Assembly (NCBI GenBank): GCA_008632985.1
Contig: QPGO01000002.1
Location: forward strand, 124,001-188,000
DNA: 64,000 nt
Source of the DNA: Psammoneis japonica
Lineage: Eukaryota
Direction: 5' to 3'
Numbering within the stretch: position 1 is the first letter of the stretch; each line of letters starts with the position of its first letter. Below are positions 1-36,900 of the stretch, piece after piece. The notes under the pieces are model-generated. The model did no database searches. It saw only the letters and a program-made list of their open reading frames with translations, and was not told the origin of the DNA. The position numbers were made by a program, and so were the translations under genes.

Positions 1-3000
1 TCACATGGCACTTCACTTCCAGGAACCCATGCACCATGTCGTCAAGCTCCCCTTCACACTTTTCAAAAGCAACCCACACATTCTTCATCTCCATGCAAAC
101 GGGCATCCTGCCAGAGGGTGTTGCCATTTGCACAATCAATCTGAATTGCCTCCTTGATGCTCTTCAGAATCCAAATGCCAAACTCGTGCTTTGGAAGCCA
201 GCACTTTGACTTGACCTTTGCAATGGAACGCTTGCAAGTTCTCACAACATGAGGACCCACCAAGCAAACGCCGCCTCCTTTGAGATCCTGCGTTGAATGG
301 CAAACTTGGCAACTTGCACAAGAAAGCTCTCTTTGGTGTCCTTCAAGTCAACCCATGTTGTGCTTCTGTCCTTCCATTGGAGCACAAGTTCCCATCCTTT
401 GGTGGACTTGCACCCTTTCCCAATGCCCTCCTCAGTCTTGAAGAACATGGATTGTGGAATGTCCCCATTTGCACAGAAATCTGCCATCTTGTCAAATGGG
501 AGGTGCCGGTTCCCAACCTTGGCAATCTGTGCAAACACTCTCATGGCAATGGAGTCAGCTGAGAGCACAGTGCAATGCCCATCAGGGTGCTCTGCCTCAT
601 GCATCCTTGTGTCAAGGATGGGATTGCCATTGTCATCTCTCAACCTCTTTGTGACACAAGCAAAACTCAGGGCCATCATCATCTCTTGATGGAAGTGCAA
701 CTTCCATGTTGAGACATCCCCAGTCAGCTGCCTCCAGCATTGATGCTGATGTCACAAGTCTTTGTGTGGTCTTCTTGAGTGTGTTTGCCACTTGCTTGAG
801 CCTGATGCACCATTGTTTGCTTGAGTCAGCAGTCAGCGGCCAACACATTGCCATGCCTCTCCTCAGACATGAAAGTCTTTTGGAGCACTGAGTCTTTCTT
901 GTCCTTCGCCAATCGTCTCCATGGCAGAGATCTGGGCTTCCAATGTGGAGATCTGGACTTCCGACTCTGCTCCCACATTGACAGTCTTGAGCTCAATGGT
1001 CTGTGGATTTCAAGGTTGTTGGGAGGTCATCTGGATCTTTGGGCATTTGTGCAAGTCCTGCTCTGTGGGAGTGCAGGTTGTCACAATGCAACAATGTTGG
1101 CCCCCATGGCTTCAAGTGGCACAATGAATGACTTGTCCTCCACAAGGATGATGTGCAGTGGCAAGTCAGAACAGGGATTGTCCTGGACCTTGACACCAAG
1201 ATGCCACAGCTGCTTTATGCCAACCAACAAGTTCTCCATGGAATCAGGCATCCACAAGCCCTGCGGTTGAAGACCAGAGTGAACGTTGCTCCCAATGTTG
1301 GTGACGTCCAAGCTGTGGCCACTGAAACTGTTGGGACACTCTTGATGGAATCGCACCCCTCATTGAAAGGCAGCACATTGCATTCTTGTCCAGAACAACC
1401 TGAGAAGGTAAAGCTTTGACCAAAAACAGTGGAGTCAGCATGCAAATCCATTTCATGTGTGAGTGATTCATGTGTCAGATGGCACTGCTGAGATGCGTCA
1501 TGTCAAGGCAACAACTGCGTGGATTTTGTTTTTCTGATTGACATGGCTGTCTCCAGCCCCAATGTGGCAACCACAACATGAGGTCCGTGATGTTGCTGAG
1601 CAGGGGATCCAGCTTGGCAGTGTCAACTCTGCTTTCCATTGCACCTTCTGCTGTGACCACCAAATGCATCCCCAGCATTGTGCCCATCTTGAGCATCATG
1701 CCTTGAACTGCCATTGCCAGAATCAGTGTTGATGCTGGTGTTCAAGGCAGAGATTTTACAGCTTGCTTCTTCAACCCTTCAACCACCACAGAGCAAATCT
1801 CCACGGGTGGAGATTTGCTCTGCTCAAGGAATTGTGATGTGTCATGCATTTGCATGACAATGCAGTGCACATGTCATGAAAAGGCACATCATGTGCAATC
1901 TGCGTAAAACACACCACAGGCAATTTTTCAATGCAAGCAAATCTCCACCAGCGGAGATTTGCTCCAAGGGTGTGGCATTTGCTGCTCCATTGTGATTGTG
2001 ACACATCACAAATTTCATTGTCAAAGGTTGAGATTTAGTTCCTCTCTGCACATGGATGAAACATGCAAAAAAACCGGTGCAAAAAAGTCAACATTGAACT
2101 TTCTAAATTGCAAAAATGCCCCCACAGAGCTTTTGTTGAATGCGTGCTCCAAAACAAATTCATGTGGATCAGTTGTTGTTCACATCTGGAAATGCCACAT
2201 TTGTCACATTGGTGACACAAGCAAGCAAATTTCCACCCGTGGAGATTTGCTCAAGTCCGGTGGTTGAAGGGTTGAGGATGGATCATCATTTGTTTAGAGC
2301 TTGCAAATGATTGAAAACAACCTGGATTTGTCACTTTGACAATGCGTGCATTTGCCAAAAAACAACTCATTGACAGGTCAAACTTTGTCTGTTTGCAAGA
2401 CAACATGGGGTTCACATGTGATGGTTGCAACCATGCACGATGTGCAGCTCAATGACTGCAAATGTGTCCATGGCCGGTCAAACCCCAGTTGTTGGCATTT
2501 CCTGGAAAGTTGTGGCTTGTCTGCCACAAACAGTCCAATTTGGGCAGAAAATGGCAGTTTTTTGCATGTGGCAACAGTGGCACATGCAACAATTGACATT
2601 TGAAGGTCAGCGTGTGCAGTTCACACAGAGGTCTGACAGCCCTGATGGGGGCTGGACACACTCAAAAGAAAACAGTGCCAAACAAAAATCCAGCCCCAAG
2701 CTGCAACAACAGCTTCTGATTCTTCTGCATGAGCAACTTGACAGATGCAGTGCAGCGTTTGGGGTTTCTGGGTTGTTTGGCAACACCCAGACTGTTTGTC
2801 CTCCTTGTGGCATCCAGCGTCAATGAATCTGTCTTCATTGCAGATGGTGCCACCCTCCCTTCCTCCTCCAGAGGCAACTGTGGCAATGGCACGACAATGT
2901 GCAATCATCTCTGGAAGAGTGGCAACCTTTGTGGCAAGATGGCCAGCCACCACGGCAAATGTGATGCCTCCTCCAAACTTGTTGTGTGCCTTCAAGGTTT

Positions 3001-4322
3001 CAACTGCGGCTTGCAGTTGTTGGTGCTGCGTCTTCTCAAAAAGGATGCACAATTTCTGGGCCTCTGTCTTTGGCTCATCATTCTCTTCAAAGACATCAAA
3101 CATTTCTTGAAGTTTGTCAATGAATGACTCAAAAGGCACAGCGCGCTCACTCCTGCAGTGGGGAGCATGCTTGGCTTCAGAGATGCAATGGAAGGTGTTT
3201 CCTTCTCCCTGGCAGTGATTGCACAATGCCCTGAAGTCCACTTGTCCGTTCTGCTCATCCTTGTGGTCTTTCAACCACTGTTCACTCGGTGTCCCCACAG
3301 CAAGGGGTTCAATCAACAAGTGAGCTGCATGAGTGTCTGCTTCAAAAACAGAACCTTTAAGAGGTGCACATGCAATGCACTTCTGGACAAAAGTGTTGTG
3401 ACCTTCAGGTTAAGGCTCATCATTGTGACAAGTGCAACGCACCAACGGCACCCCAGAGACCCCCAGCATGATGCCAAGCATGTTTGTCAAACCAGTGCAC
3501 CACTCAACCCAATCCTTCTTGTTCTCTGACATCCCAGGTGATGCCTTTTTGCCAAGAGATTCAGCAGTGGCCTCAGTCTGGGAGCAAATCTCAGCATGAC
3601 TGAGTGCCATCTACAGTGCAGCAGCACAAAGAGTTGCCTGATTGAGCCCATCAAGGGCAGGATCTTCACTCATGTGACCAAAGTCCTGAGCCCAATGGAT
3701 GAGAGCCTTGAGTTGGTGACTGCAGGCCAAACCAAATGAGTGCACCCTTCAGCAACTGCCCTCCCAGCACATGATGATGCAAGAGAGTCAACACCTTCTT
3801 CCTTGAGGTCTTCCAAATCATCGAAAGATGCAAAGTCTGCCACAAGCAAGACTCGTTGAGCTGGATCAACAAATCCGATCCATTCAAGAGCTGTCTTGAT
3901 TGGATCCAGAGGAGCAGCCGCCATGGTGGTGCCTGGACCAGTGGAAAAACAAAGTTGTGTGAGAGATCACATGATGAGATGATGTCTCAATTTTGTGCTG
4001 ATGACAACACATGGCCATTGGAGGCATGGAGATTGACCATGTCATCTTGCTGCTTGTGCACTCACTGATGCCAGGTGATGACAATCATCACACATCCTTC
4101 AATCAACTGGCACTTGTTGTCATGACCCTGCCATCATGGCGTGATTGTTTCTTCGCGGTTGTTCATCGTTTTTGTCAAACTGAGCATGTGAGCAACGGCT
4201 TGGCTCTGACAAAGCAAGCAAATCTGGCTGCTGGACAGGCTCAGCCACTCACAATCTCAGTGTGATGATGAGAGTGCAACCAATGAGATGCTTCTGGGCC
4301 TGTCACAACTGCAATTGCAACA
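1..4322 (-). mobile_element. Degraded Ty1/copia LTR retrotransposon, diatom CoDi-like (gag, protease, part of pol; integrase core apparently deleted; runs off the window start)
   Basis: Gag-like ORF pieces 3924-2621 (MAAAPLDPIKTALEWIGF...; FESFIDKLQEMF). Protease motif DLHADSTVFG (~1450, cf. DSHADT). KQWCIRLKQVANTLKKTTQR (~800). TKGWELVLQWKDRSTTWVDLKDTKES...FAWWV and HEFGIWILKSIKEAIQIDCANGNTLWQDA are typical of the CoDi post-integrase region. Many stops and frameshifts. The 4322 end (TGTT start of a putative LTR) is tentative. Confidence 0.85.
1775..2271. mobile_element. ~500-bp piggyBac-type MITE inserted in the copia element
   Basis: Terminal inverted repeats CCCTTCAACCACC...GGTGGTTGAAGGG, flanked by TCAA (1771-1774) and TTGA (2272-2275), both one transition from the TTAA target site. 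Three copies of the hairpin AGCAAATCTCC-N6-GGAGATTTGCT (~1792, ~1937, ~2224). No coding capacity. Confidence 0.8.
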
Positions 4323-4329
4323 AGAGTGA

Positions 4330-5750
4330 GACTGTTTCTGTGGCTGCAGAGTTTCCCTCCGATGCCACGTCACAGTGCCACCGCCTCAACTGCCATGGCA
4401 CAGCAGACAATCCCTGATGCTCTGGATTTCACTTGCGTGTGTTGCGCACGCGGGAATGGAACAAGAGTGCATGCAGCAGGCAATTTTTCACTTGGTGTGG
4501 GCAGAGCATTTTGATGAACTCGACTCAAGTGCAGCAAGAGTCAACACACCAAAGCAACCCAGATGACAAAGTGTTGGAACGAATGCATGACAACAACTCA
4601 ATTCAATTCAATCCTGGAATTTACACAGCCCTTCCCGACTGCTGCCCATTCCAAGCTTTCAACAATGCCTGACATGCCATTCAATCCACAACCATGAACA
4701 GGGTCAGAGCACACATGCAATGCAAAACAAGTGCAACCCAGCATTTGCAGCTTTGTGGGTGGAAACACTGCACAACTGAAAATCACATTGGATTCTCCCA
4801 ATCAACATCAAATGCAGCAATGACTGTTCTTGCCACTGACACTGCTTTTGTGGCCAATGTCTTTTGCAGTCCTGGTTGTCTGCCAGGGCTGCTTCTGGTC
4901 TGGTGAGCCATCATGCCTGATGGTGGTTGGAGGTGCTGGGGGGTGACCACCAAATTCCCAATTCTTCATCGATGCACCCATCCAAAATGCTGCAATTTTG
5001 CAGAAGTTTTTTGCAGTGCCAGGCAGCAATCACAGCTCAGGATGACTCTGCCATGTGAGATGCTGCACATCAAATGCAAGAGAGAGTGAATTTGCAGAAA
5101 ATCCAACAGATGCCTCCCAGCTCCCCACAACAAGCACTCTGATCACTTTCCCTGCCTGGAGCATGATTGACACTGTGACATTGGTGTGAGCGACCTTCTG
5201 ATGGCAACAGCATCACATCTGCCATTGCTGTCATTTTGTTGAACAAGCTGTCTGTCACAATGTTGGCTGTTCCTGCAATGATTTTTTCAGCAAGTGCAGA
5301 TTCATCAGGTTGCTGTCTGTGTGGCAGGCAGGACCATTTGACAGGGTCAGTGTTGTGCTCAAGTTTCGTCGATGCGCGGCCAGTGGTCATGAGCCTGTTG
5401 CTCCCATTTTGCATCGCTTCAGCTGGAAAAAATCCTGGGCAATTTGTTCTCATGACCATTTAGATGGCAGACTTGTTTCCCTCTGCTGCGCCATTGAGGA
5501 TGTCTTGAGTGGCACTCCACACCCTTGAGTCGTCCCTGACCTCCTTTTGCTTGCTCCTCCTCATCTCGTCCCTGCAGTCTGCCTCGCTCTGCTGTGCTTG
5601 CCAGCCTGGCCAATTCTGCCCAACACCTGGCATTGCAAAGAGTCTCAATCATTTGCGCAACAGTTTCTGTGCTCTTCAACCTGTTGAGAATGAACAAGTT
5701 GAAGTGCGACAGTTGTGAGAAAAGACTCCAGTGAGTGCCCCGCAGCAAAT
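4330..5750 (-). mobile_element. Degraded non-LTR retrotransposon fragment with RNase H-like domain
   Basis: ORF 5459-5070: KIIAGTANIVTDSLF...APGRESDQSACCGELGGI resembles the AVSDGS...PG..DQSAYRSELGG RNase H motif of diatom LINEs. Boundaries approximate. Confidence 0.6.
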
Positions 5751-5761
5751 GTTCTCAGAAT

Positions 5762-6080
5762 GAGTGTTTGCCCATTTTTGGACTTTCTCTCACCTTTCTT
5801 TTCTCATGTGTGCTTTTCCAAGTATGATGAAGCATGTCATGCATTGGCATTGTTGGCAGGAAAACTTTGGCGGCAAAGTGGCATCAGCTGTTGAAGTTGT
5901 GAGATTCGAGCATGAGCAACAGCAAGAAAATTACACAAGGCGTTTTGTCCACATTTGGACTTTATCTTACCTCTCTTTTCATGGACATGCTTGTCAGAGC
6001 AAAATGTGGCATGTAATGTGTTGGTGTTGTTGGTGGGAAAAGGTTTGGCGGCACAATCTAGCATCGGCTGTTGCTGCCGT
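5762..6080. repeat. Diverged two-copy tandem repeat (~175-bp period)
   Basis: ~5762-5900 aligns with ~5938-6080 (TTTGGACTTT..., TTTGGCGGCA..., GCATCRGCTGTTG). Confidence 0.7.
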
Positions 6081-6180
6081 CATGTGGTCTGTTTCATTGT
6101 TGTTTTGAGCGAGCGACGTCTGGGAGTCGTGCGTGCGAATTCACTATTTGGAACAATGACTGATGTTAAGTAGTTGATCG

Positions 6181-6395
6181 AATGTCGTTATGTAACGTAT
6201 AAAACGATGCTTTATGTAGCATAAACTTCGCATATGTAGCTTATAAAGTTATGCTACATTAAGGCAGGGTGAGCAATGAAAAGTCGCGTCATGCAGCTTG
6301 TAAACTTCCCCTATGTAGCACAGAGCTACATAAGGGTGAGCAATTAAAAGTCGCGCTATGTAGCTGTCGTTATGATGTAGCTTTACCCACATGTA
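6181..6395. repeat. Cluster of short (T)ATGTAGC motifs in both orientations, possibly a DNA-transposon subterminal region
   Basis: About 7 ATGTAGC/GCTACAT copies plus duplicated AGGGTGAGCAAT(G/T)AAAAGTCGCG. Abuts the start of the duplicated gene fragment. Confidence 0.5.
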
Positions 6396-6400
6396 TGCGA

Positions 6401-8241
6401 AGTGAATCGAATAACGCAACACCAAGGCCGCTTAATATCGCTCTTCCTCGAAGGTCTCACGAAACCATTTACGCCTGAAGAAAAGGAGCTCTTGGAAATT
6501 ACGTTTGAAGAGAAGCTTACAACAACCTCTCAGGAGGCTGCAGAGACATTTACGAGCGAAGCATCAGCAACGTGCAGCTTGTGAACTATGAACTACTCCT
6601 AGCTGGCGACGGAACGGTTCCATTTATGGATACGGATTGGACAGTAGATGTTCTTTGCAATGGGTGCTCTCCGATTGAACCCATGTGAAACTCTGGAATC
6701 GAAAATAAGACGATCGAATCTGGGAGTGAGAAGAAAAACCTTTTTGATCGCAAGCAGTCTTCTCCCTATCCTGAAGATGCTCTTCACAGGAGAACTGAAG
6801 AAGAATTCAAAATACGATCCACAACATTTTCTGCATCCGATTTTATGCCTCAATTAAATTTCAAGTTCCTTGAAATTGGAATTGACGAGTTCGAAGCAAT
6901 ATCCGAGTTGTATGTGATTGATACGAACGGGGTCGAAGCCGAAATCATCAGAATAGACAATCAGAGCCCTAGTCAGCCAGCCCCGTCGAATTCGCCATCG
7001 AGTTCGCTATCGAGTTTGCCATCGAGTTCGCCTTCGATTTCGCCATCGAGTTCGCCTTCGATTTCAAGCTCCACATCACAGCCAAATAGTCCTGCACCGG
7101 CAGGTTCAACATCGGCTCCTGAAGAGCCCAGCACAGAGCCTCCAACCACGTCTTCGCCCGCAGCAACCCCCACCCCGCCCCCAATTGCACCAAAGACGGG
7201 GCCACCGACTGCAACTCCAACGAAACAGCCCACAAACTCACCAACGCGAAAGCCAAGTCTGCTGCCGACTTTGCAGCCATCACAGAATCCGACTCCGACT
7301 CCTACCGTTGATCCAACACCACCCCCGACTCTCGAACCAACTCTGCCGCCGACTCCAAATCCAACATTGCCTCCCACACCACCGCCATCACGAAACCCCA
7401 CTCCGCCTCCCACCATTAATCCGACGCCACCGCCATCACCGAAACCATCCCTACCTCCTACACCAAATCCAACAACACCTCCCACACCACCACCGTCTCA
7501 AAATCCTACTCCGCCTCCTACAATTAATCCAACACCGCCACCATCACCGAATCCATCTCTACCACCGACGCCATTTCCAACATTGCCACCGATACCGCCA
7601 CCTACCATTAATCCATCACCGCCGCCATCTCCTAATCCATCTCTACCACCGTCGCCGAATGCGACACCGCCACCAGTACTGAACCCAACTCTACCTCCAA
7701 CACCTGATCCGTCGTCGGCAACTCTACCTGCTACAGCTTTACCAGCCTCAGTGTCTCCAACGACCACTCTTGGCGTGCCTTCTTCGGCTCCATCCTCGTC
7801 TTCAGCAGGACCGATTGGAGTACCTAGCTCTTGTGCCATCTTCCTTACCATCTGCAGGCCCAAGTGATGCAGCTACAGAGTAAGGAGCTTTATTTTCAGA
7901 ACGCAACCAGGTGGTACAGGTTATCTTGTCCATTCCGAGCGCGGCGGACAAACTCAATTCGGTACCATGTGACAGAGACGGCCGGTGGTGCCAGTCATCA
8001 GATCAACTACCTCGAGTTCTTTGGATTTATCACTTCCCCCCTTTGACGGTGCCAAGTGATGCGTTTGGGGCTCCTTAATTGGCATTTTTTGCGGTTGGAG
8101 TCTTTTGCGCAGCCGTTCAAGGTACGATTGGTACCACCAGTACGCCATGCCATTTTTCTCTAAAGTCAGGCTAATTCACCCCCATTCAGTTGCATTGACT
8201 ATTAGCACAACACCTGAGGTATCACATCATGGGTCTATGGG
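6401..8241 (+). pseudogene. Internally deleted, frameshifted, inverted partial copy of the giant mucin-like gene at 44.1-55.6 kb
   Basis: 6401-7830 matches the reverse complement of ~55583-53800 with deletions; ~7831-7869 matches ~45328-45290; ~7882-8241 matches ~44426-44071 (C-terminus plus 3' flank). Small indels break the frame. ORF 6845-7867 is near identical to the parent protein. Confidence 0.92.
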
Positions 8242-9103
8242 AATGCCAAGCGTTGGGCAGAGTTGGTTGGGTTGGCGAGCGCAACAGAGTGAGGCAGAAC
8301 GGAGGACGACAACGAGGAGCAAAAGGGGATCAGGGGTGACTCTAGGGCGTGGAGCATTCTTCGTGGTAAATCTACAATCTACCACTTTTGGAAAAGTCCG
8401 GGAATAACCGGCAGACGAGGTTGCTCTTGTCTCTAAACATTTGAGTGACTTCCTGGGTTGCTGACTGCAGCGGCACCCAGGCAATTTCTATCTGCAATGC
8501 TGTTCACAGGCGCCCACCCGCCTCCGAACAGCGTGACGGTCTCAGAGAGCCAACGGGGTGGCATCCCGGCGAGACTGAGAGTGGTGCCTCCAAGGAAGGG
8601 GGTGCCACTTGAAGTTGTAGACCCGAAATCTCTGTAGATAGGGTTCGGCTGCCCTCGAAAGCTGGTGCGCGTGGATTGTTGTCTTAAAACTCTGCGGAGG
8701 ACACAATAACCGGAGCAAGGAGCAGGCGACATTGGAGCAGCTATGCGACATGGGAGTCGGCGGCGTTGGAATAGCTAGGCTGTGTAAGAGTCGTTGGCGA
8801 TAGCTGCTATGCGGCGTGGGAGTCGATAGAGGTGGAGTTGATGTCATCTTTCGTTTCAAGTCTCCAACAACAGGGCATTGTTGTTGTTGCGCGCTTCTTT
8901 CGCTACACTGTAACCACACTTCATGATGCACTCTACTAGCAGCCGCATTTCTTGGCTAAATTGACAATGTATTTTCTTCTACTAGAGTACTTACTATCCT
9001 TTGTGCTGTCCGCCAAACTCAAGCAATGCAGTGAGTACTCGAACGAATGCACTTGACCCTTGACCCCCCTACTCCCGCATCAAAGTCTACGATGACCACT
9101 GCT

Positions 9104-11934
9104 TCACCAGAGACCCGGATTATCACGCCGAAACTGCTCCACAAAGGTGTCGAAAAGCAAGGGAAGTACGTCAGGCTTGTTCCCTTGCGGCACAATCCCG
9201 AGACTCTTCAAGATTTCTTTTGCGGCCGTGAGAGGGAACGCCGTGTACACTATCCCATGCTCCGAAAACATTGCTTTGCGTGCGGCATCGTCCATGTCCA
9301 GCCACAAGATTGCGATAATCGCGGACAATACCAAGGGAAGTGATTCTCCCGGAAGCTCGTAGTCACCATAATTTTGAAGCACAGTTTTCTTTCGCTTCGG
9401 CAAAGGCTTCTCGGCCAGTTTTTCTTTCAACGCAGGTGCGTTCAAAACGCAGGCTACCTGCTCACATGTCATACGCGTGGAATCTTTTGAGACGTGATCT
9501 AGAAGCTTCTTGTACAGCACGGTGCCCTTCTTGCAGCTCACGTTGTTTAACAATGAAAATACCATCTGCTGGTACCCCAAAGCCTTGTTCAGAGTGTCGG
9601 TGGTTTCATTGGCCAATGCCTCGCGCAAACTCTTGTCAACGGCATAGATCCGGGATGGGGGAGCTATCGATGAGTCTGAGCCGACGTCAATCACCTCAGG
9701 CAGCAACGTTTCCGGAGGTGAGGGCCGAACTTCATTGGCTTCAAAGCCCTGGGATGGCGGAGCCTCGTCAGATACCGCCGGTGATCCGTTTGTGCTCACT
9801 ACCTTGCCCTCGGGCGATGGAGGATGCTCGGAGGACACCGCTGACGAGGGCGTAAACAGGAAGGCTGATTCTTGAGAAGCCAATGACGTGGGGGTATCCA
9901 GATCAACGTTGTCGCAATGATGCATGATGGCACGTGCTGCAACGTCGTCGTCCTCAAGACCGTTGCCTTCGATAGAGAGGTGATCCACTTTGACCTTGCT
10001 CACAAATTTCCCAAGGAGTTCGAAACTGGCGTTGCCCAGATCGTTAGTAGCAAAGTTCACGTACTTCATCTCCTTGATATGCGGGTTCTCCAGTAGAGCA
10101 TTTATAATGCTCTCAAGGCCATGGTCGCCGAGTTCAGCATCAGCGAAGTTCATCTTCGACAGGCGCTTTTGGGTTTTCAGGAGCTCCCCAAAAGCATCTG
10201 CTCCCTCTTTCCCAACCGTAACGGCTTCAGCACTGAATTGTTCCAACTGGCACCCTTTCTCTTTCAAGCCAATAAACACCTGCTTGCACTCTTGAGGGCC
10301 CAGGCTTGCGTCAGAGATATTCAAGTGCTTGATGGCTCGGCTCAACTCAAGGACAAGGATGAGCAAGCGAACTTGATGCGAAGCTAAATTGGCACCAGTT
10401 AGATCCAAAGCCTTGAGATTGTTGAAAGGCTCAGTCCACGGCTCCAATGTTTTGCTCGCCAAAGCATGGAGAACCCTATTCCACACCTTCGCGGTCATTC
10501 CTCCTCGCAAGTCGTGGAGATCGAGCGTCTTCAGATGAGGCGCCGCCTTGATGAGTTTGCCAATGGCCATCAATGCGGTGTCATCGTCGGTGTCCGAACA
10601 AGCCGTAATGTTGCCAATGGCGAGCGCTTCCAGGGACGCAGCACGTGCCGCGAGCTCTCCGAGAATAGCGGCGATTGTGTTTGCTTGAAGGCCCGCGTCA
10701 CAGAGCGAAACAACTTGAAGTGAGTCCTTTTCCAGCTTGCTGAAGAGGGTTGTCACTGCTAGAGCAACGTCGGGGCCCATCGCATTTTTTTCGCATACGA
10801 AGTAACGGAGATTGGGTGCTGGACTCAAGGCATCGCATATAGCACTCATGACCGCTGGACCGGAATCCGAATGGGTTTGGGTTAGAATCTCGGTGATGTC
10901 GATGAACTCGATATGTTGTCGCACGTCGTTTTCTTTCAAGAACGATGCGATTTTGGAGGCTCCTTTCTTCGTCATTGGACAGCCCGAAAAAGTCAACTTG
11001 GTGACCTTCAGTCCCTGCTTCAGGCCACGTTTCACACACGGAGCCCAAGCCTCCCCGATGAGCTTCATAGCGCCATGCTTGTCCAAAGTTTGACGGCGAG
11101 GTAGTCCACTAAGAGTTATGCCCTCGCCGTTGTGGAAGAAGCCGTCAAGACCGAGATCGACCGGCATGGAACGGGCCTCCTTGAACAGTTGGGAGAGATT
11201 GGAGCGAATGGACGCCTCATTGGGTGAAGCTTGATGTGCACCTTGGAGAAAACCGGGTGCAGTGTTGATGCTTGGGGGGCGGAGATGCTCACGCACTCCA
11301 TCCAACTGGCGGTGCGGGAGGACAACGGGCTGAGACTTCGGCAAAGCGTGGGCGTCTGGGCCGTCTTCGAAATTAAGGCGCCGCTGGAGCTGGAGCGCGC
11401 ACTGGCGGTCACACCATAGATTTCTTGAGCACGAACGGAGTTGTCGGTGCGTCGGACAGACCGGTCGACATTCGTGCGCCTGCTGTTGTCGGTGTGGCGG
11501 CGGACCGAGTGGTCGACGGTCGAGCGGCTGTTGTGCCCAACGTAGCTGGTGCTGCCGATCGACACGTTCGCTCCTTCGCCCACATTGAGCACCAATGGTG
11601 GAGGCTGCTGTAGAGGCTGCGGTGTCTCTTCCTGCGCCGCTGTTGCCACTGTCGCGATCGGCGTTGTCGGCGCCAAAATGTTCAATTGTCGCTTGCGATG
11701 CTGCAGCAAGTCGGCTAGTTTTTTGCGGTTGTGCTTGTGGTTGGGATTGTCCTCATTCCAACATTCCCACAGACTCGGGTGCTTGAATCGGTTTTTATGA
11801 CAGTCGAAGATCGGACCCAGCCTCGTGGAGTCATCTCCGCGTCCGCAAAACTCGCTGAATCCCCCGTGGTCTTCGGCCATTTGGGTGAATTCAGCATCCA
11901 GATCTTCCGTCCAGGGATCTGCGAGGCTCTGCAT
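9104..11934 (-). CDS. Leucine-rich repeat protein (ribonuclease-inhibitor/RanGAP-like LRRs); split over two frames near 11340
   Basis: 746-aa ORF with RI-type LRRs (LKTLDLHDL, LKALDLTGANL, IKHLNISDASLG, MKYVNFATNDLG, HLSIEGNGL) begins at a non-ATG codon. The overlapping upstream ORF has an ATG at 11934 (MQSLADPW...). The join (intron, frameshift or error) is unresolved. Confidence 0.7.
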
Positions 11935-12914
11935 TCTTCTTGTTTGATGAGTTGGTTCTTGTTGACAATCAAAAGGCAAGATTATGAGAGGTAGAGGCAC
12001 GAGCGCAGTGTGCTCTGCGGCTCTGCGTTCGGATTTGTGCCGTGCCTTGTGAGAGATTTTGTGAAATTTCCCGTAGATTTCCGCAGGATTTGTACGAAGA
12101 GTCGCGTAGATGACCCGCACACGACCCGCTCCAACCGAACGAGCATTCACAAGACTTCGTGTCGGTTGGAGTAGACATGAAATTTTGCCGACAGAAATCA
12201 AAAATGGAGGGAAAAAGTGGTCGCTCTCTAAGTGATTTGAGACGAGAATTTGTGTTCAAATCTGATTGGCCGTAAGGTCGCGATTTTTTGAATGCAGCCG
12301 TGTGTAACACATGGCAGAGTCGTCTACTGAAGCTTTGTTCATTAATATGAACATAAAGTAAGTATCAAAATTAAAGATGAAAATTGCGCGGGGCATTGAA
12401 TGTGAATTGTTCAAAATGTCCTATGATATATTGGAATCCATGCAGTCTCGGTCAGTCATTTGGTTTGTATAGTGATCCTGTAGAAGTGAACGTGAAAATA
12501 GTCATAATTTACTTCCGTTGCTAAGAACCTACGTAGGAATCACAGTATGTTTTCCGCAGGCGGACAGGAATCACGACTCGGAAATCACGATCAGCAACAG
12601 GAGGACCAGAAGAAAGACATCGAAGGGCAAAAAGACATCGTTCACAAACCCGATAGTTCCTAAGTAAATAAAGAGGACCAAAACTCTCGCAAACATCGAT
12701 AGTGAAATCGTTTGCGTCACCGACCTACGTCATACCGGTAGATCAGAAACCGCAGCACTCTTCGCTACATCCTCCACAAGATGAAAAACAATATAGCAAT
12801 GAAGCCGGTCCGGTTGCTCGCGTTTTTCATCACATTGCTCTCTCTCTCTCTCTCTACGAGGGGTTGAACAATGTTGCAAGGCTATTTATTCGCACTAGTG
12901 GTTGATGACTTGGG

Positions 12915-14990: not shown

Positions 14991-15093
14991 TTTGACAAGT
15001 TTTTGAGATTTAGAATGTATGACACGTCCAGTTTTTCTTCTCTCTCATTCACCGCATGTGTTTTCTCCTTTGATCACAAACAACAACACAACC

Positions 15094-15924: not shown

Positions 15925-16350
15925 ACTCGACTCTAGCATGCTAGAGAATAATAACGTCTCTTAACTCTTCAGTAGAGAGCAGCAATATATTGTCACACAA
16001 ATAAATAATGTCAATGACTAGTAGGTACTTCTACATATTCATCGTGTTTCGAGAAGGACGAATAGCTGTATCAATCTTGACTACTACCAGTACACAAGCA
16101 AAAAATAGTCTCGTCCATACAGGTTGAGGCTATAAGTAAGCCGTAAAACTCGACTAGTCATGCTCGAGAATAATAACATCTCTTATATCTCTTCAGCGGA
16201 GAGCATCTCTTCAGCAGAGAGCAGCAATATAGTCACGCAAATGAAAAATGACTACTTGGTATTTCTTCATGTTCATCGAGTTCCCAAAATATGTCGGGTA
16301 TTATTGCGAGAAGGAGTCTCTACGACTCATACAGGTTAAGGCCTGGAAAA
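15921..16350. repeat. Diverged ~220-bp tandem duplication of the intergenic 3' region
   Basis: GTAAA(A)CTCGACT...GAGAATAATAAC...GAGAGCAGCAATATA...CGAGAAGGA...CATACAGGTT(G/A)AGGC occurs from 15921 and again from 16143. Confidence 0.75.
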
Positions 16351-30424: not shown

Positions 30425-30534
30425 TGCAACGTGCAGCTGCCAATGAGAGTCAATGTATCACGGCGACGTGTTGCAGCCTTTAAATGTCACAAAGGGCGTG
30501 ACAAAAACAACCTTTTGTCTGCGTGCATGCTGCA
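30425..30534. repeat. 110-bp direct repeat flanking the YR element; partner at 37131-37240
   Basis: Ungapped alignment with 16 differences, all transitions. Confidence 0.93.
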
Positions 30535-30635
30535 TTGTGAATTCACAGCGGAGTGGTTCATCGCAACCATTGGGCAGGAGGCCAGGGGTTCGAAACCCTG
30601 AGTGGGAGTTGTCTGAAGCAACGTTGATCACTGTC

Positions 30636-30774
30636 GCGGCTCACGCTGCCCGTCTTGTTCCTTCTCCTGCGGCTCTCTAGTGCCAACTAGAGATCTTCCA
30701 ATGATGGGCTGGAATGGCTTTGCCAGCGGATGCGCAAGCCTCATTCCCAAAACCCAAGCTGGAACGGCAGGGCC
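30636..30774. repeat. Split direct repeat B (139 bp); partner at 30991-31129
   Basis: GCGGCTCACGC...GGAACGGCAGGGCC present at both positions. Confidence 0.95.
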
Positions 30775-30794
30775 AGAGGGCGGGAGAGGTGGGA

Positions 30795-30991
30795 GCGTTA
30801 AAAACTGTCTAGCGGCTTCTTGCTCTTTGTTGCTCTTCAGGAAAATGAGTGAAGCAAACGAGAAAAGAGCAGAAAAAACCGTTGTTTGCTCGCCAAGTTC
30901 GCGCAAGCACGTTCAAATTTGAATTCAAACGGTTTGCATGACCCAACGGTCAAATGTGGGTCATTTGCCTCGTCACACTGCACAAGGTGGG
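30795..30991. repeat. Split direct repeat A (197 bp); partner at 36809-37005
   Basis: GCGTTAAAAACTGTCTAGCGG...CACTGCACAAGGTGGG present at both positions. Confidence 0.95.
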
Positions 30992-33900
30992 CGGCTCACG
31001 CCGCCCGTCTTGTTCCTTCTCCTGCGGCTCTCTAGTGCTGACTAGAGATCTTCTGATGATGGGCTCGAATGGCTTCACTGGCGGATGCGCAAGCCTCATT
31101 CCCAAAACCCAAGCTGGAACGGCAGGGCCTTCCAGCGCCACCTGCAGTGCCGTGCACTTTTGGGAGGGTGGGTGGGTTGAGGCTGGAGGGCTGTGGTGAT
31201 CAGGCGTCTTGAGGATTTTGAGGGACGTCAGCATCAGGGTGGAGGACGAAGTCGCCACCGGCGAGCATGTCGCGAGCGAAGTTGCGCATGACTGGTTCTG
31301 CTTGCAAGTGCAGGTGTCGCAACATTTCGTCGGATCGCCAGCGGCCTAAGAGCCGAATGAGATCGGTGTCGATGCGGGCACAAAGGAGGGCCATTGCTCC
31401 GGCGGCACGAAGACACCGAGCGGCAATGTCTCGGGTGGTGAAGCCGAGATTAGCCGGACTGAGAGCAGCGACAGCATTGCGCAGCATGCTGGTGATGTCG
31501 GCCGGGGACACACGACGCCAGGTGTTGTTTTGAAAGCAAACACCAAGGGGTGTGTCAGGGAGCACACTGTGGGTGCGCAAGTGTTGGACACGGCGGATGA
31601 GGGCTTGAACCGGGCACAGGTGGGGGTGACCGGAAAGACCAAGCCCTTAGAACTTCGCCTCGCACTCCATTTTTCTGGGTGGCAAAGGTGAGAGTGGCAA
31701 AGTTTGCTGTGTTAAGGTGTGCAAGTGGAGCTTGCATGGCATCAAGGTGAGCACCACCAGACACAAGCCGGACATCGGCGAGACGAAAGGGAGTGGTGTC
31801 TGATGGTGTTGCGGTGTGCTCGCCAGGCCGTGACAGGAAGAAAAAGGCAAGCACAATCATTTCAGCAATGGCTTGTGTGCCCGGGGCATTGCTGATGGCT
31901 GCGGCGGTCATGATCCATTGCAGCACTGCAATTGGGACCGGTTTTACGCGGTCTGGGGGTGGATCCTGCTTCTTGTAAAAACGGACTTGCCGGGTGAGGC
32001 AGAAATCCATTGTGCCTTGGGATGTGTGGCGTGGGTCCGGGGACCCCATTGCAGCGAACGTTTGGCCAACCGAACGTGCGGCATCTTCAGCGGTTCTTCC
32101 ACGGACGGGATTGCCCATCGGCGCGAGGACTCCTGTGCGGTGTCGGTGCAAGAAGACTTGGAGGAAGACAACAGGGTCGTCAACGTCTTCGAGGAGTGGG
32201 TCGATGGCCAAAGAGGAGCAGAACTCTCGCCATTTGTCCCAATGGGCACTGGTGGCGGAGGCTCTGGAAGAGGCAACGCCATGCTGGACTGCGTGTTGAG
32301 CAGCATTGAGATCACGTATGAACTCAGTTCTGGTGGAGGCGTCCAGAGACGCCAGGAGAGTTTCTGCAGACAGTGCAAATTAAAGTGACGCAAAAATTCA
32401 CGGTTGGACAAAGACTGCAGTCGTGAGGCATCGTCAGCGGCAGTGTTGAGGTGTCCAGGCAGGCAGTCATGCAACCCCAAGTGGCGATGGTAGCGTTGGT
32501 GGCAGGATTGGCATCGAAGCAACCGGGAGGCGGGTTTGACGGCAGTGGTGGCACCTTTACGTTGCCAGCACATGGTGCCTGAATTGTCGGTGCGTGAAAG
32601 ACTGGTGCATTCACGGATGTCAAAACAGTCGGCGGCGCCGAAGGACTGAATGACACTGCCGGCAAGTTCCAGGTCTGTGTTGGTGATGGGACCGTGCGGG
32701 TTGGAGAAAGTGGAGAGTTGACTGCTGACACTTTTGGGAAAGGGCAGTCGCCACACTGCAGGACCCGCATCTCTCTGTTGACAGCGTCTGCAATTGCCGA
32801 AATGGAGAGTGGCTGCTCTGGGTGCTGTGGCACTGGTTGGCAGGAGGACGCCGCCTGCGCCGTGACCTGCAGCATCATGACAGCCGGTGAGTGTTGGTTT
32901 TGGTGGAACCAATTCTTGAATGCGAACGGGTCGGGCGTCTAGGGTAGATTCTAGATCCCGAAAATCATCTAGTGCGCAGTGCGCATTGGCGGAGATCCGG
33001 ACCCGTGAGTCCGGAGTGGTGTGTCGGAGATTTTCTTGTAGCACTGAGAAGAGGCCCCGGGAGCCGGGGATGGCAATGCTCAGAGAGCGCAGCTCTCCCA
33101 GTGATTTCTGACAGTCGGAGACGGCAGCACATTTATGTGTGTGGGGGGAAATCCTGGTGCAGCATTGTGTGAAGTCGGGCACACCGTCGGGGCGTGAGCC
33201 GGATGGTCACAGCGCGAGCATCTATGAGCCAACCCAGGACTTCTTTCTGCGTGGACCATGTGGCATCACCCTGGCGGAGCTTCTTGACGGAGACGGGCTC
33301 TTTGCGGGTGGCTGGGTCATGTGCATCGAGTGGGCGGAAGACGTCATCGAGAACATGCAGCATCACACGGTGAACGTTGCGCCGGGCTTGTTTCGAACCT
33401 TGCGCAGCGCCGAGGAAGTTGTCTACATAGATGTCGATGTATTGCAAGCGGCGGCGCCGACGCGGTCAGAGGTGTGGGTCGGGCGCATTAGGAATGGGCA
33501 CGGCCTGGGAAGCTGCGGCCACTTGTGGTGGTTGGTGCTTCGGCGGGCGGCTTTCTAAAAGCGATTCCAGCGGATGTGGCGGTGCTTGGACGTTGCGCAC
33601 CAAATCCAAATTGGCGACATCGGCAACAGTCTCCATTGCTGTGCAGAACAAAGGCGGGGAGTTGGCCCAGCCCATGGGCAAGCGTGTTGGGATTGCAACC
33701 AGTGATGGTTCGCCCGATTGGTTCGGGAACACTGCACCAAGTGTAGGAGCCTGTTCTGGCGCAACTTGCATGTGGCAACAGCCATCAGCCAAGTCGATCT
33801 TCATGGGACAGACCATGCCTTTTCTGGGATCGGCGAGCAGGATGCGGCGTAGAAGGCGGTTGAAGGCACGTCCAAATTGCATGGCTTCCATTGCAGCGTT

Positions 33901-36900
33901 GGGTTGCGTGGAGGGATTTAGCCCACAACAGGTGCAGTCCACAATGGGGCGGGGACGTCGACCATGTTGAGGCACCACGCCAATTGGGCTTGGGCGAAGA
34001 CCGGGGGTGTGACGCACTTCCTCATAAGGGATGACAACCCAAAAGCCTTTCTCGACCATGTCGGCCATGTCTTGGCGCAGAAACTCGATGTGTTCGTAGG
34101 CGGATTTGTGTGGACCCCTGGCGACACTTGCGTCTAGCTCAGCATGCGTCCATGGTGCATCGGCGGCGGTGATGGGGGCACCTCGGTGCTTGCAATTGCT
34201 CAGCAGTCGGTGTGCTGGGTGTTGCTTGACTCGGTGGAGTGGACCCCAATCGCCTCTGCCGCTGCGATGACGCAACAAGTGACTGAGACCTCTGTGACGC
34301 AGTGACGCAGCATCAGTTTGTATGTGCTCACCTGGTTTGTCATTGTAGATTGCGGCAGCAACATCCTGTCCACGGGCAGTGGGGCGGGTGCGCTGCCTCT
34401 TGAAATTCTCCACAGTCGGGGGTTGTGGACGTGATGGCGCATCGACCATCGCGGATGAAGGCTCTTGGCTCCAAGTCCCCGAACTTGGGCCATTGCCGAA
34501 GACCTGTTCGGTCTTCCAGTTCTCCTCACCCCAGGTGAGAAGGGTGGTCTGTTCAGCGTCTGTGTGGTCATTGCGATGATCACAGGATGAGCCACAGTTG
34601 GTGTTACATTGCCCTTTGTAATGGCAGGGAAAGCAACGGGGACGACCTTGGGCATCTTTGGGAAGTTCGATGTTGTCCCTTGCGCATCGGTTTTTGACAT
34701 CGCGTGACCTGACGTTGGGGCGGTCACGAAGGGTGGCGAAGCGGTCATCATAAGAAGGGTTGTGGACGCGCTGTTGCTCCCCATGGCTTGACTGATGGGG
34801 GCCCTGTTGGCAGGCTGGTGTTGAGTTGCCGGGGCCGGTGCGGCTCCCAGTGCAGAACTGGGGCTGGCAGCTTGCATGTTAGCGGGCAGGTGCGGGCGCC
34901 AGCACATGATTCCTTTTGCCGCTTCAAACACAACGTTCAATGGTGAGAATGGAAGCGGGTGAAGGGAGGCTTCTTAAGCCTTGAACCAATGGCGGACTTC
35001 AATCTGCGCGCAGCGTTGAAAATCCACGGGAAGGGTTGGGTGCCAAGTGGCCTGTGTTGCCAACTCGTTGGCACACCGGTCCATGTCTTGACGTTGATGG
35101 GTGAGCCATTGGACAACTGGATGATTGGCTCCAAGTGAGGCAGAAAGCACCAGGCGGCATCCATCGTAGGACTGCTGAGCGGCTTGCATTGTCGTCGCCA
35201 CGAGCGCCTTGTCTGGTGCTTCCAGGACCTGCGTGTCTTGGAGGGACGGGGCCGCAGCGCCGCCATGAATGTGCATGTACATGGCCTTACGATGAGCGAT
35301 CTGCTCGGCACTGTCTGGCACAGCAATCCCAAACTGGAATGGAGTGATGCCTTGGGTTGGCTCGTCTTGATTGTGACCAGCAAAATCCAACTGTACGAGC
35401 TTGGTGACAAGGCCAACCGTGACTGGCACGTCAAAATGAACGGCCATGGCCTGGCGTTGCTCGTCAATTGCATTTTGGACGACTGCCAGGCGGCCTGTCT
35501 TAGGCGCTGCGGCAAGGGCGGCCCACATGGGCGGTGGTGCTGTCTCGTTGAGGGCGTGGCACCAATTCACAAGCTTGGTGACACCAAAAGGTCCCCAGAA
35601 CTCATTGGGAACCTTGCCCCGGGCAGCCGCTTGTTGCCGTGCAGTGGCATCAAGTCGGAGTTGTCATTGTTCAGTGGTGAGCTCTTCAATGGCCTGCACA
35701 ACTGGCTGGAAGTGCTGAGCGGTGGGTGGTGCCCGACCCAGTCTCCCGGGGATGTCCCGCTCCACCTTGGCATCAAAAAATTGAATGAGGGCTTCGTTGG
35801 GGGGCGTGTCATGGCAGGCCAAGGTCGCGCCACAACAGATGCCACTTGGTTGTGGGCAGTGGCACAGCAGGCGACGCGCAAGAAGTCGAGTGGTGGTCGG
35901 ATGGCAGCCACCTTGTCAGCTGCCGTGGCGGCGCCGTGCACGTGCTGGTGGGCTTGTTTAGGATACAAAGGGTGTGCCAACAAGAGCGGCACGAACTCAA
36001 ATGGCACGTGCATTGCGTGTCGTGTCTGTGCGACTTCCGAGTTTGGTGCATTCTCAGCCAGATGCGGATGCAGGCCTTCCGCATCATTGGTGACATGCTC
36101 CAGGAGTGCGGCGTGGGTCGGCACCCTAGTCCCCTGCTGTGCTAAATTGAATGAGTCGTTCCTGAATTCGACCAGGGTAAACTGTCCACGGGTTAGGTCA
36201 CCCGCCATTGCGTGCGTCTCACCATCCCAAGGTTCGGCAGGTCCAACCACGGTCGTCGGATAAGTGGTGACGCGGTGCAGGACTTGGATCTGTCCTTCGT
36301 CCGCTGCGCCGTCCTCTCGGCAGTGCATGATAACGGCCATCGGCTGATCGTGACTTGACGCCGCTGCAACTCGCCCATGGAGTGCTCCGGGGTTGCATCT
36401 CGAAGGTCCCTGAACCGGAACCGCGAAATCTAGCATCGACTCGTCGCACACCCCCCGGTGTGGGTCGTCAGCGGCTGTGAGGTGGAAATCCCGATGCGTC
36501 GCAATGACCGGCGGCGCCGCCGGTGCGGCTCGTGCACCCGGTGGTGGTGGTGGCATGACGGCTCCTGCTGCTTGCGGTGCCACCGGAGGCACCGGGACTT
36601 GTGGAGGAGGGGGTGGTGGAGCGTTTTGGGCTGCCGTGGCGGCTGCTGCAGCTCCTCTTTGCGGTGGAGCAGGGTCGTTGGCATTTTGGGCGTTCTGGGC
36701 CCCTTGTCCTGCGTTTTGCTGCTGTTGCGCGTCCACAATGGACTTGCCAAAGGTTCTTCCTGCAAACAACAAGGTGCTGCGGCGGAGGCATCCTGCGCCA
36801 CGTCGATGGCGTTAAAAACTGTCTAGCGGCTTCTTGCTCTTTGTTGCTCTTTGGAAGAATGAGTGAAGCAAACAAGAAAAGAGCAGAAAAAACCGTCATT

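What the first reader, a model, noticed from the sequence alone, without database searches (positions are those of the whole stretch)
1771..2275. piggyBac TTAA target site rewritten as TCAA on the left and TTGA on the right
piggyBac elements insert strictly at TTAA and start with CCY, so the ancestral state is known. The two flanks now read TCAA and TTGA, and the TIR reads CCCTTCAAC, probably from CCCTTTAAC. This polarises the change as TA->CA/TG. It also shows the change happened in chromosomal DNA after insertion, in a DNA transposon with no RNA or cDNA stage, which argues against ADAR-type RNA editing or RT error.
Basis: partly seen in the sequence, partly recalled or inferred. Interest (0 to 1): 0.85.

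Follow-up and report, generated by a model that had tools for sequence, protein, structure and literature searches.

The report
Diatom piggyBac-like MITE with mutated target site
A small piggyBac-type transposon in a diatom genome lies in a block where nearly every TA and most CG have become CA or TG, and its flanks are best read as a former TTAA target site hit by that DNA-level process.

Summary
TCAA (1771-1774) and TTGA (2272-2275) flank perfect 13-nt inverted ends, CCCTTCAACCACC and its complement.

- **Real, highly repeated MITE.** 620 contig pieces from one public run match it at 80% or more, and depth at its ends is about 3,000-12,000 against about 180 in the flanks.
- **Probably TTAA-targeting.** Seven contigs of other copies lose homology exactly at 1773. 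Their flank consensus ends in TT, which reads TT|AACCC. This is indirect, because I could not fetch the copies.
- **The TIR claim is not supported.** I found no support for CCCTTCAAC arising from CCCTTTAAC in this copy.
- **TTAA is not the only possible ancestor.** CG is also depleted here, so TCGA could give the same pair.
- **The TA-to-CA/TG conversion itself is well supported.** The host is a diatom. Poor and normal kilobases hold the same number of pyrimidine-purine (YR) steps per kb, 241.7 against 241.9. Duplicates in poor DNA differ mainly by TG/CA doublets. Conserved Tyr of a reverse transcriptase reads Cys or His.
- **Precedent.** A 2026 preprint shows the same TpA hypermutation in Bigelowiella natans.

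Verdict: partly supported, a new member of a known kind, interest 0.6.

The parts
1771..1774 (+). Left flanking tetranucleotide TCAA. Read as the left copy of a TTAA target-site duplication with T>C at 1772.
   Evidence: Sequence. Seven contigs of other copies diverge before 1773 with a consensus ending in TT (table 7).
1775..1787 (+). Left terminal inverted repeat CCCTTCAACCACC.
   Evidence: It is an exact reverse complement of 2259-2271.
1789..1822 (.). Left subterminal 34-nt palindrome (15-bp stem), 1 nt inside the TIR. Probable transposase-binding module (inferred).
   Evidence: D1, I6.: -15.8 kcal/mol, z -8.99. The half-site GCAAATCTCCAC occurs 6 times in the window, all inside the element, against 0.52 expected.
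1933..1966 (.). Internal copy of the same palindrome.
   Evidence: D1, I13.: -10.7 kcal/mol, z -6.40.
2221..2254 (.). Right subterminal copy of the palindrome, its paired stem (2224-2251) ending 7 nt inside the right TIR. 2231 is a private C>T of this copy.
   Evidence: D1, I11.: -8.6 kcal/mol, z -4.12. table 3: 2231 T>C in 26 contigs, share 0.94.
2259..2271 (+). Right terminal inverted repeat GGTGGTTGAAGGG.
2272..2275 (+). Right flanking tetranucleotide TTGA. Read as the right copy of the TTAA duplication with A>G at 2274.
   Evidence: Sequence. No direct evidence from other copies for this end: no loose-end row for it among the 10 shown.
1..6000 (.). TA- and CG-depleted block that holds the element. 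It is open at the window start.
   Evidence: TA o/e 0.00-0.08, CG o/e 0.17-0.28 and CA/TG o/e 1.74-1.98 in all six 1-kb bins. The next bin (6001-7000) has TA 0.69 and CG 1.11.
30425..31129 (+). Context evidence: repeat segments that recur at 36809-37240 and differ from them mainly by TG/CA doublets.
33469..34878 (-). Context evidence: decayed reverse-transcriptase ORF in TA-poor DNA. Conserved Tyr positions read Cys or His.
   Evidence: RVT_1, E 0.12; 230 homologues, many with PF00078.

Best explanation
Positions 1775-2271 are one copy (497 bp) of a highly repeated, non-autonomous piggyBac-type MITE in a diatom nuclear genome.

**Anatomy (shown).** It has 13-nt CCC...GGG terminal inverted repeats. 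Three copies of a roughly 32-nt palindrome lie inside it, two of them subterminal.

**Mobilisation (inferred).** A piggyBac-family transposase supplied in trans bound those modules and inserted the element at a TTAA, duplicating it.

**Later conversion (shown as a regional pattern, inferred for these two sites).** The surrounding block of at least 6 kb then underwent a DNA-level process that turns TpA into CpA or TpG, together with CpG decay. That process changed the left TTAA to TCAA (T>C at 1772) and the right TTAA to TTGA (A>G at 2274, the same change on the other strand).

**Consequences.** Target-site duplications are host DNA made at insertion, and the element has no RNA stage. If the TTAA origin holds, the change took place in chromosomal DNA. 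The copy is now probably immobile (inferred).

**What is not attributed to this copy.** The element's own TA-poor sequence, including TTCAAC inside the TIR, is mostly shared by the family and was probably not acquired here.

**Enzymology.** The underlying chemistry is not shown. The closest measured precedent, in Bigelowiella natans, proposes adenine deamination at TpA.
For: **It is a MITE.**
- The whole element folds at -120.9 kcal/mol, z -9.16.
- 620 contig pieces of run X1 were laid at 80% likeness or more, split 115/125/198/182 across the bands 99+, 95-99, 90-95 and under 90.
- Summed depth is 3104-12043 in the terminal bins against 175-430 in the left flank.

**The target was TTAA.**
- The loose-end row at place 1773 'before' holds 7 contigs. 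The median loose length is 255 and the agreement 0.52, so the flanks are unrelated.
- The consensus ends ...CTTTTT. These copies therefore read T,T at 1771-1772 before AACCC.
- CCC/GGG ends, a 12-19-nt TIR, subterminal inverted repeats and a TTAA duplication are the superfamily features listed in PMC5381638 (passages read).
- Kolobok, the other TTAA-targeting superfamily, has purine (AG/RR) termini (PMC6004289, passages read). This element does not.
- A piggyBac-related transposase is reported in two diatoms (PMC2806351, passage read).

**The regional conversion is real.**
- 22 TA-poor kilobases hold TA 3.0, CG 20.5, CA 113.2 and TG 105.0 per kb (sum 241.7). 31 normal kilobases hold 38.3, 58.1, 69.1 and 76.4 (sum 241.9). 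Losses of 72.9 equal gains of 72.7.
- Duplicates inside TA-poor DNA differ at 35 positions, and 22 of them form 11 TG/CA doublets. Three duplicates in TA-normal DNA show 0 doublets in 64 mismatches.
- In the reverse-transcriptase ORF, 7 columns are Tyr in 60% or more of the 12 best homologues. The window reads Cys 4, His 1 and Tyr 2 there. Conserved His (4 of 4) and Cys (1 of 1) are kept.
- Within this MITE copy, 1878 (TG against TA in 3 contigs) and 2049 (CA against TA in 15 contigs) are TA>TG and TA>CA relative to the majority.

**Precedent.** In B. natans mutation-accumulation lines, 230 of 231 mutations in two viral inserts are A>G or T>C, and all of these transitions fall on TpA.
Against: - The TTAA reading rests on one summary row of one call. 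I saw only a consensus of 7 contigs, with no per-position counts and no equivalent row for the right end.
- All three runs come from one sample, which may be the source of the assembly, so they are not independent.
- TCAA and TTGA are reverse complements, exactly as expected if they belong to the TIR. Under independent mutation this mirrored outcome has probability 1/2.
- CG is also depleted in this block (o/e 0.20). TCGA is three times commoner than TTAA in normal DNA, so CpG decay of a TCGA could give the same pair.
- TTAA is the best-surviving TA context in TA-poor DNA: 16 of 65 surviving TAs against 48 of 1187 in normal DNA.
- No piggyBac transposase is in the window. None of the 139 different ORFs scanned against Pfam matched one.
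- No second copy could be fetched.
Confidence: 0.65

Rival explanations
1. TCAA and TTGA are simply the outermost four bases of a 17-20-nt terminal inverted repeat of a non-piggyBac family. The target duplication is something else, now unrecognisable, and nothing was rewritten at these four bases.
For: The two tetranucleotides are exact reverse complements. The inverted repeat runs on to 20 nt with one mismatch (1768-1787 / 2259-2278). The same TCAACC occurs again inside the TIR (1779-1784), so TCAA is native to the family's end sequence.
Against: Seven contigs of other copies stop matching at 1773 rather than at 1771 or further out, so they do not carry C at 1772. No direct repeat of any length borders 1768-2278 or 1771-2275.
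Confidence: 0.12
2. The duplicated target was TCGA (or another CG-containing tetramer). Ordinary 5-methylcytosine decay turned it into TCAA on the left and TTGA on the right. On this reading the site says nothing about TA.
For: CG o/e is 0.17-0.28 throughout 1-6000. 1-4000 holds 1 TCGA against 38 in the TA-normal 12001-16000, where TTAA numbers only 13. Differences of CG against CA or TG between this copy and other copies are seen at 1989, 1999, 2090 and 2163.
Against: The flank consensus of the seven other copies ends in TT, not TC. Copies with G at 1773 would be clipped at 1774, not 1773. As far as I recall, no transposon superfamily with a TCGA target is known; this was not tested.
Confidence: 0.1
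3. It is a Tc1/mariner-type (Stowaway-like) MITE with a TA duplication, rewritten to CA (1772-1773) on the left and TG (2273-2274) on the right. The TIR would then begin ACCC. The polarity argument would still hold but the superfamily would be wrong.
For: The row is equally compatible with xTA|ACCC in other copies.
Against: T at 1771 and A at 2275 would both be coincidences, at about 0.07 jointly. The consensus of the other copies also has T at 1771. CCC/GGG ends with subterminal inverted repeats fit piggyBac.
Confidence: 0.05
4. The absence of TA is not a mutational conversion. It would be native composition of this repeat class, or a base-calling artefact at modified bases.
For: Most of the element's TA-poor state is shared by other copies: only 2-3 of the 40 listed differences restore TA. 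All read evidence comes from one sample.
Against: The YR budget matches exactly. TG/CA doublets between duplicates occur only in TA-poor DNA. Tyr reads Cys or His against outgroup proteins. Block edges are sharp and do not follow gene content. A contig of X1 reproduces 1539-1795 with 2 differences in 257 nt.
Confidence: 0.04

Closest known systems
piggyBac superfamily non-autonomous elements (MITEs)
   Same: CCC...GGG termini, a 13-nt TIR within the 12-19-nt range, subterminal inverted repeats close to the TIRs, and a four-base flank one transition away from TTAA at each end. Features as listed in PMC5381638. That paper also notes rare unequal 5' and 3' duplications, 'probably due to mutations'.
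   Different: Neither flank of this copy reads TTAA. The subterminal modules are perfect palindromes present three times. No autonomous partner was seen. The host is a diatom, where only a weakly piggyBac-related transposase has been reported (PMC2806351).
TpA-specific hypermutation of integrated viral DNA in Bigelowiella natans (bioRxiv 10.64898/2026.01.13.699255; abstract and Results read)
   Same: TpA to CpA/TpG only. TpA depletion is matched by CpA+TpG enrichment, in clusters of at least 3 kb. The paper's cut-offs (Rho TpA <= 0.43, Rho CpA+TpG >= 1.52) are far exceeded here. It is linked to transposon-type sequences and acts on chromosomal DNA.
   Different: The lineage differs (stramenopile against rhizarian). 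Depletion is much deeper here: TA o/e 0.00-0.08, against 0.45 for their NCLDV region. Some blocks here are coupled to CpG depletion. No de novo mutations were observed here, only the end state.
Repeat-induced point mutation (RIP) of ascomycetes
   Same: Block-wise, dinucleotide-specific transition mutagenesis of repeated DNA (recalled; papers seen only as listings).
   Different: The direction is opposite. RIP makes TpA from CpA, while here TpA is destroyed and CpA/TpG is made. RIP lowers GC and this raises it.
Kolobok superfamily / T2-MITEs
   Same: TTAA target site (PMC6004289).
   Different: Kolobok ends begin with purines (AG, AGGRR). This element begins CCC.

Membership tests
piggyBac superfamily (non-autonomous member) | TTAA target-site duplication | tested here: inconclusive
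   This copy reads TCAA / TTGA. Seven contigs of other copies have a flank consensus ending in TT before AACCC. There are no per-copy data and nothing for the right end.
piggyBac superfamily (non-autonomous member) | TIR of 12-19 bp beginning C[C/A/T][C/A/T], classically CCC...GGG | tested here: met
   CCCTTCAACCACC at 1775-1787, with its exact complement at 2259-2271. Criterion from PMC5381638.
piggyBac superfamily (non-autonomous member) | Subterminal inverted repeats near both TIRs | tested here: met
   Palindromes at 1789-1822 and 2221-2254, starting 1 nt and ending 7 nt (paired stem 2224-2251) from the TIRs. They are palindromes rather than the asymmetric repeats of the type element.
piggyBac superfamily (non-autonomous member) | Autonomous partner with a piggyBac DDE transposase and the same ends | not testable with these tools
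   None in the window: no match among the 139 different ORFs scanned against Pfam. No genome is held.
piggyBac superfamily (non-autonomous member) | Precise excision restoring TTAA | not testable with these tools
   This needs empty sites or an assay.
Kolobok superfamily | TTAA target with purine (RR/AG) termini | tested here: not met
   The termini are CCC/GGG. Criterion from PMC6004289.
TpA hypermutated region of the B. natans type | TpA depletion with matching CpA+TpG gain, clustered over at least 3 kb | tested here: met
   TA o/e is at most 0.08 and CA/TG at least 1.74 in six consecutive kilobases.
TpA hypermutated region of the B. natans type | New mutations almost only A>G / T>C at TpA, arising in chromosomal DNA | tested here: inconclusive
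   The evidence is indirect only: TG/CA doublets between duplicates and Tyr reading Cys or His. For doublets in blocks where CG is also depleted, a CG ancestor cannot be excluded. No mutation-accumulation or population data were available.
TpA hypermutated region of the B. natans type | Targets foreign or mobile DNA | tested here: inconclusive
   The TA-poor blocks hold this MITE, other repeated pieces (depth) and a reverse-transcriptase element. However, none of the ORFs from those blocks reached a Pfam threshold.

The most novel reading that the evidence does not exclude
Diatoms, like the chlorarachniophyte B. natans, would run a RIP-like genome defence that edits chromosomal DNA specifically at TpA (A>G / T>C). 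It would act here to near saturation over multi-kilobase repeat blocks, sometimes with and sometimes without CpG decay, and with a flanking-base preference in which TTA/TAA is spared and ATA/TAT is hit. The mutated TTAA duplication of a cut-and-paste MITE would be a natural proof that the edit acts on DNA and not on an RNA or cDNA intermediate. It would also mean the system is spread across distant SAR lineages.
Probability: 0.5. Interest if true: 0.8.

Novelty: new member of a known kind. Interest (0 to 1): 0.6.

Why it matters
A TpA-specific, DNA-level hypermutation has so far been shown only in one chlorarachniophyte, in a 2026 preprint, and its enzyme is unknown. My searches listed no paper reporting it in diatoms.

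If the reading holds, target-site duplications of a TTAA-specific cut-and-paste element give a built-in ancestral state. That allows three things in an ecologically important group with genetic tools:
- dating the process relative to insertions;
- measuring its strand choice;
- showing that it acts on chromosomal DNA.

It also warns annotators that transposons in such blocks are hard to recognise. Tyr codons and both TA-containing stop codons are erased, and Pfam missed the reverse transcriptase at normal thresholds.

Tried and rejected
**Whole genome and earlier notes.** No genome is held.

**Other copies in the window.** None was found. The TIR 13-mer with up to 2 mismatches gave only chance-level hits: 5 found, and 10 of 100 shuffles reach 5. 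The palindrome half-site occurs only inside the element. Self-BLAST found nothing. A scan for TYRA-CC...GG-TYRA pairs found only this one.

**Other copies in public collections.**
- Metagenome contigs with TIR plus palindrome gave 0 hits.
- The palindrome alone gave 36 loci. None was related: BLAST matched only the pattern, and their TA o/e was 0.31-0.84.
- Viral contigs gave 0 hits and then 13 loci matching only the 14-22 nt at the pattern.

**Protein route to other copies.** The 54-aa ORF that reads across the left TIR had no candidate in the 5.8-billion-protein set, searched only for lengths of 29-95 aa.

**Other searches.** Rfam gave 0 matches in the window. Pfam found no transposase and no transposon family at threshold in any TA-poor block.

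**Runs.** X2 and X3 laid 3 and 0 pieces and added nothing.

**Chance.** I considered and rejected chance as an explanation (see the observation check).
Full report
**1. The observation.**
- The repeat finder gives the inverted repeat as 1768-1787 / 2259-2278, 20 nt with one mismatch. It is perfect over the 17 nt that include TCAA/TTGA.
- One search also finds three copies of a roughly 32-nt palindrome, at 1789, 1933 and 2221.
- The exact 13-mer occurs only at these two places in 64 kb. The palindrome half-site occurs six times, all inside the element, against 0.52 expected.
- In 300 Markov simulations of 1-6000, perfect 17-mer inverted pairs averaged 0.01 against 6 observed.
- TCAA and TTGA each occupy about 1% of positions in 1-4000, so both sitting against the repeat ends by chance is about 1e-4.

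**2. The setting.**
- The window is eukaryotic and intron-poor. It holds a proteasome subunit, a cysteine synthase, a fatty-acid desaturase, coatomer beta and giant PT-repeat/discoidin ORFs.
- The cysteine synthase has a signal peptide ending ...ALSCA|FTP. I recall this as the heterokont 'ASAFAP'-type plastid signal; this was not tested.
- Its best named homologues are diatoms: Fragilaria crotonensis 87%, Grammatophora oceanica 84%, Leptocylindrus danicus 83% and Fistulifera solaris 82-83%. The window is diatom nuclear DNA.
- At 1-kb resolution the window falls into sharply bounded compartments:
  - Normal DNA has TA o/e 0.4-0.9 and CG about 1 (about 6-18 kb, 38-57 kb, 58-61 kb).
  - Blocks with TA 0.00-0.12 and CG 0.05-0.3 lie at 1-6 kb, 26-30 kb, 57-58 kb and 61-64 kb.
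  - Blocks with low TA (0.00-0.26) but CG 0.35-1.0 lie at 18-26 kb and 30-38 kb.

**3. The element is a real, abundant MITE.**
- One public run holds the stretch.
- Laying its contigs on 1400-2700 at 80% likeness or more placed 620 pieces. Summed depth was 3104, 9761, 6379 and 12043 in the bins holding the TIRs and palindromes. Bins 1488-1751 of the left flank gave 150-430, and bin 2280-2323 of the right flank gave about 200.
- Other parts of the neighbourhood (1400-1443, 2456-2543, 2632-2675) are also repeated.
- No second copy is in the window.
- None could be fetched from metagenome or viral contigs, nor through predicted proteins.
- No genome is held.

**4. What the other copies say.**
- The only view of them is the summary. 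Among the ten loose-end rows shown, one is at place 1773, 'before'. It holds seven contigs, with a median of 255 loose letters, agreement 0.52 and a consensus ending ...GCACTTTTT.
- The paired rows at 2664 and 2668 in the same table show that 'place' is the outermost aligned base.
- So seven copies match the window inwards from A1773, are unrelated to it and to each other further out, and do not carry C at 1772. Their consensus has T at 1772 and 1771. That reads TT|AACCC, which is TTAA-CCC.
- Under the rival that TCAA is part of the TIR, the break would lie at 1771 or beyond.
- Under a TCGA target, it would lie at 1774 with a consensus ending in TC.
- A TA duplication (xTA|ACCC) fits the row. 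But it needs T1771 and A2275 of this copy, and the consensus T at 1771, all to be coincidences.
- Together with the CCC/GGG ends, the 13-nt TIR and the subterminal inverted repeats, I rate a TTAA-targeting piggyBac-type element at about 0.7.
  - These are the features listed for the superfamily in PMC5381638.
  - The purine termini of the other TTAA-targeting superfamily, Kolobok, do not fit (PMC6004289).
- This rests on a consensus, not on counts. There is no matching row for the right end. All the runs are one sample, and possibly the assembly's own.

**5. What is not supported.**
None of the 40 differences listed lies at 1780, while 193 more are not shown. The listed ones all have a share of 0.60 or more.
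- So fewer than roughly 60% of the reads there can carry T, and the C looks like the family's state.
- More generally, only 1878 and 2049, and perhaps 2081, restore a TA in the other copies, yet the element has only 3 TA in 505 nt. The family was therefore already TA-poor when most copies were made.
- Four listed differences are CG in the others against CA or TG here (1989, 1999, 2090, 2163). Two are TG here against CA there at the same dinucleotide (2053/2054, 2137/2138).
- CpG decay is thus also at work in this block. This is why 'the ancestral state is known' depends wholly on the TTAA target.
- Lastly, a mirrored outcome (TCAA left, TTGA right) has probability 1/2 under independent hits. 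That is no argument against the reading, but it is what a TIR extension would give for certain.

**6. Independent evidence for TA to CA/TG in this window.**
- *Budget.* In 22 TA-poor kilobases, TA, CG, CA and TG are 3.0, 20.5, 113.2 and 105.0 per kb. In 31 normal kilobases they are 38.3, 58.1, 69.1 and 76.4. The sums are 241.7 and 241.9. The loss of TA plus CG (72.9) equals the gain of CA plus TG (72.7). This is what transitions inside pyrimidine-purine steps predict and what a mere difference in composition does not.
- *Duplicates.* Three pairs of duplicated segments inside TA-poor DNA with CG o/e 0.42-0.96 (30.4-31.1 kb against 36.8-37.2 kb) differ at 35 positions. 22 of these form 11 TG/CA doublets, and 3 more are TA against CA. 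Three duplicates in TA-normal DNA have 64 mismatches and no doublet. Each copy has resolved the same ancestral dinucleotide on one strand or the other after duplication.
- *Coding outgroups.* The ORF 33469-34878(-) has 230 homologues, many with the RVT_1 domain, though it reaches only E 0.12 itself.
  - At the 7 columns where 60% or more of the 12 best homologues have Tyr, it reads Cys 4, His 1 and Tyr 2.
  - With all 120 homologues at 50% or more, 5 Tyr columns give Cys 4 and Tyr 1.
  - Conserved His and Cys are all kept.
  - Its composition is Y 1.1%, H 5.1% and C 3.6%, against 2.1%, 3.7% and 0.8% in the homologues.
  - TAY going to TGY or CAY gives the polarity without any assumption about piggyBac.

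**7. Literature.**
- A search for TpA/CpA/TpG hypermutation found bioRxiv 10.64898/2026.01.13.699255. I read the abstract and the whole Results.
  - In Bigelowiella natans mutation-accumulation lines, 231 of 302 nuclear mutations fall in two integrated viral regions. 230 of these 231 are A>G or T>C, and all of those transitions lie on TpA.
  - 124 TpA-poor/CpA+TpG-rich clusters exist genome-wide. Low-TpA coding sequences are enriched in DDE endonuclease and reverse-transcriptase domains. An ADAT2-like deaminase is proposed.
- Searches combining diatom with TpA or dinucleotide terms, piggyBac with diatom and TpA with adenine-deaminase terms listed nothing that reports it in diatoms. These searches cover only the held open-access library.

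**8. Mechanism, with what is shown and what is inferred.**
- *Shown:* the element's anatomy, its abundance, the regional conversion of TA and CG into CA/TG, and its polarity.
- *Inferred with moderate confidence:* insertion at TTAA by a piggyBac-family transposase acting in trans; conversion of both duplication copies afterwards, in chromosomal DNA; loss of mobility.
- *Not shown:* the enzyme (adenine deamination at TpA, a thymine modification that mispairs, or something else); the trigger (repeat number, chromatin, small RNA); and whether the process is still active.

**9. Verdict.**
- The element is a new member of a known transposon kind.
- The process it bears witness to is a new occurrence, in a diatom and at far greater depth, of a kind described once before.
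- Interest 0.6. The MITE alone is modest. Its value is as a polarity and DNA-level marker for a striking genome-wide signature that deserves a whole-genome census.

Noticed in passing
whole window, 1-kb bins: There are two kinds of TA-poor block. In one kind CG is also depleted (1-6 kb, 26-30 kb, 57-58 kb, 61-64 kb; CG o/e 0.05-0.3). In the other CG is much less depleted (18-26 kb, 30-38 kb; CG o/e 0.35-1.0). No block is CG-poor with normal TA. Edges are sharp at the 1-kb scale.
   Followed up: partly
22 TA-poor kilobases against 31 normal kilobases: Surviving TAs are not random. 38 of 65 are TTAN and 16 of 65 are TTAA, against 209 and 48 of 1187 in normal DNA. Only 3 of 65 are ATAN, against 267 of 1187. 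Many sit in TTTA. This suggests a flanking-base preference of the process, or regeneration of TTAA. The numbers are small.
   Followed up: partly
window 30425-37240: This is a roughly 6-kb retroelement-like unit in TA-poor DNA. Long minus-strand ORFs (31947-33206, 33469-34878, 35570-36811) include a decayed reverse transcriptase. They are bordered by repeat segments whose order is swapped between the two sides: 30425-30534 and 30795-30991 against 36809-37005 and 37131-37240. There is also an internal repeat, 30636-30774 against 30991-31129. The layout recalls split-repeat (DIRS/Ngaro-like) elements, but this comparison is from memory and was not tested.
   Followed up: partly
window 6395-8241 against 53798-55589 and 44071-44435: There is an inverted partial duplicate of both ends of the giant PT-repeat gene region (98.7%, 95.7% and 89.7% identity). 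It lies directly at the edge of the TA-poor block and has normal TA content itself.
   Followed up: no
window 44265-55939 (-): Two very long ORFs (1201 and 2749 aa) are made of diverged tandem repeats with PT-repeat matches and a C-terminal F5/8 type C (discoidin) domain. GC skew is strong.
   Followed up: no
window 1400-1795: A contig of run X1 matches 1400-1795 at about 91% (35 differences and 7 gaps in 395 nt). It runs from the flank into the left end of the MITE. The insertion therefore seems to lie inside a larger low-copy repeat and to predate its duplication (record 1).
   Followed up: no
TA-poor blocks generally: TAA and TAG are erased there, so only TGA remains as a stop codon. Spurious ORFs over 110 aa abound on both strands, and none has a Pfam match at threshold. 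Gene callers and transposon annotators would be misled in such regions.
   Followed up: partly
window 18001-18030: A (GA)n/(AGAG) simple repeat lies at the edge where normal DNA turns into a TA-poor block (context lines).
   Followed up: no
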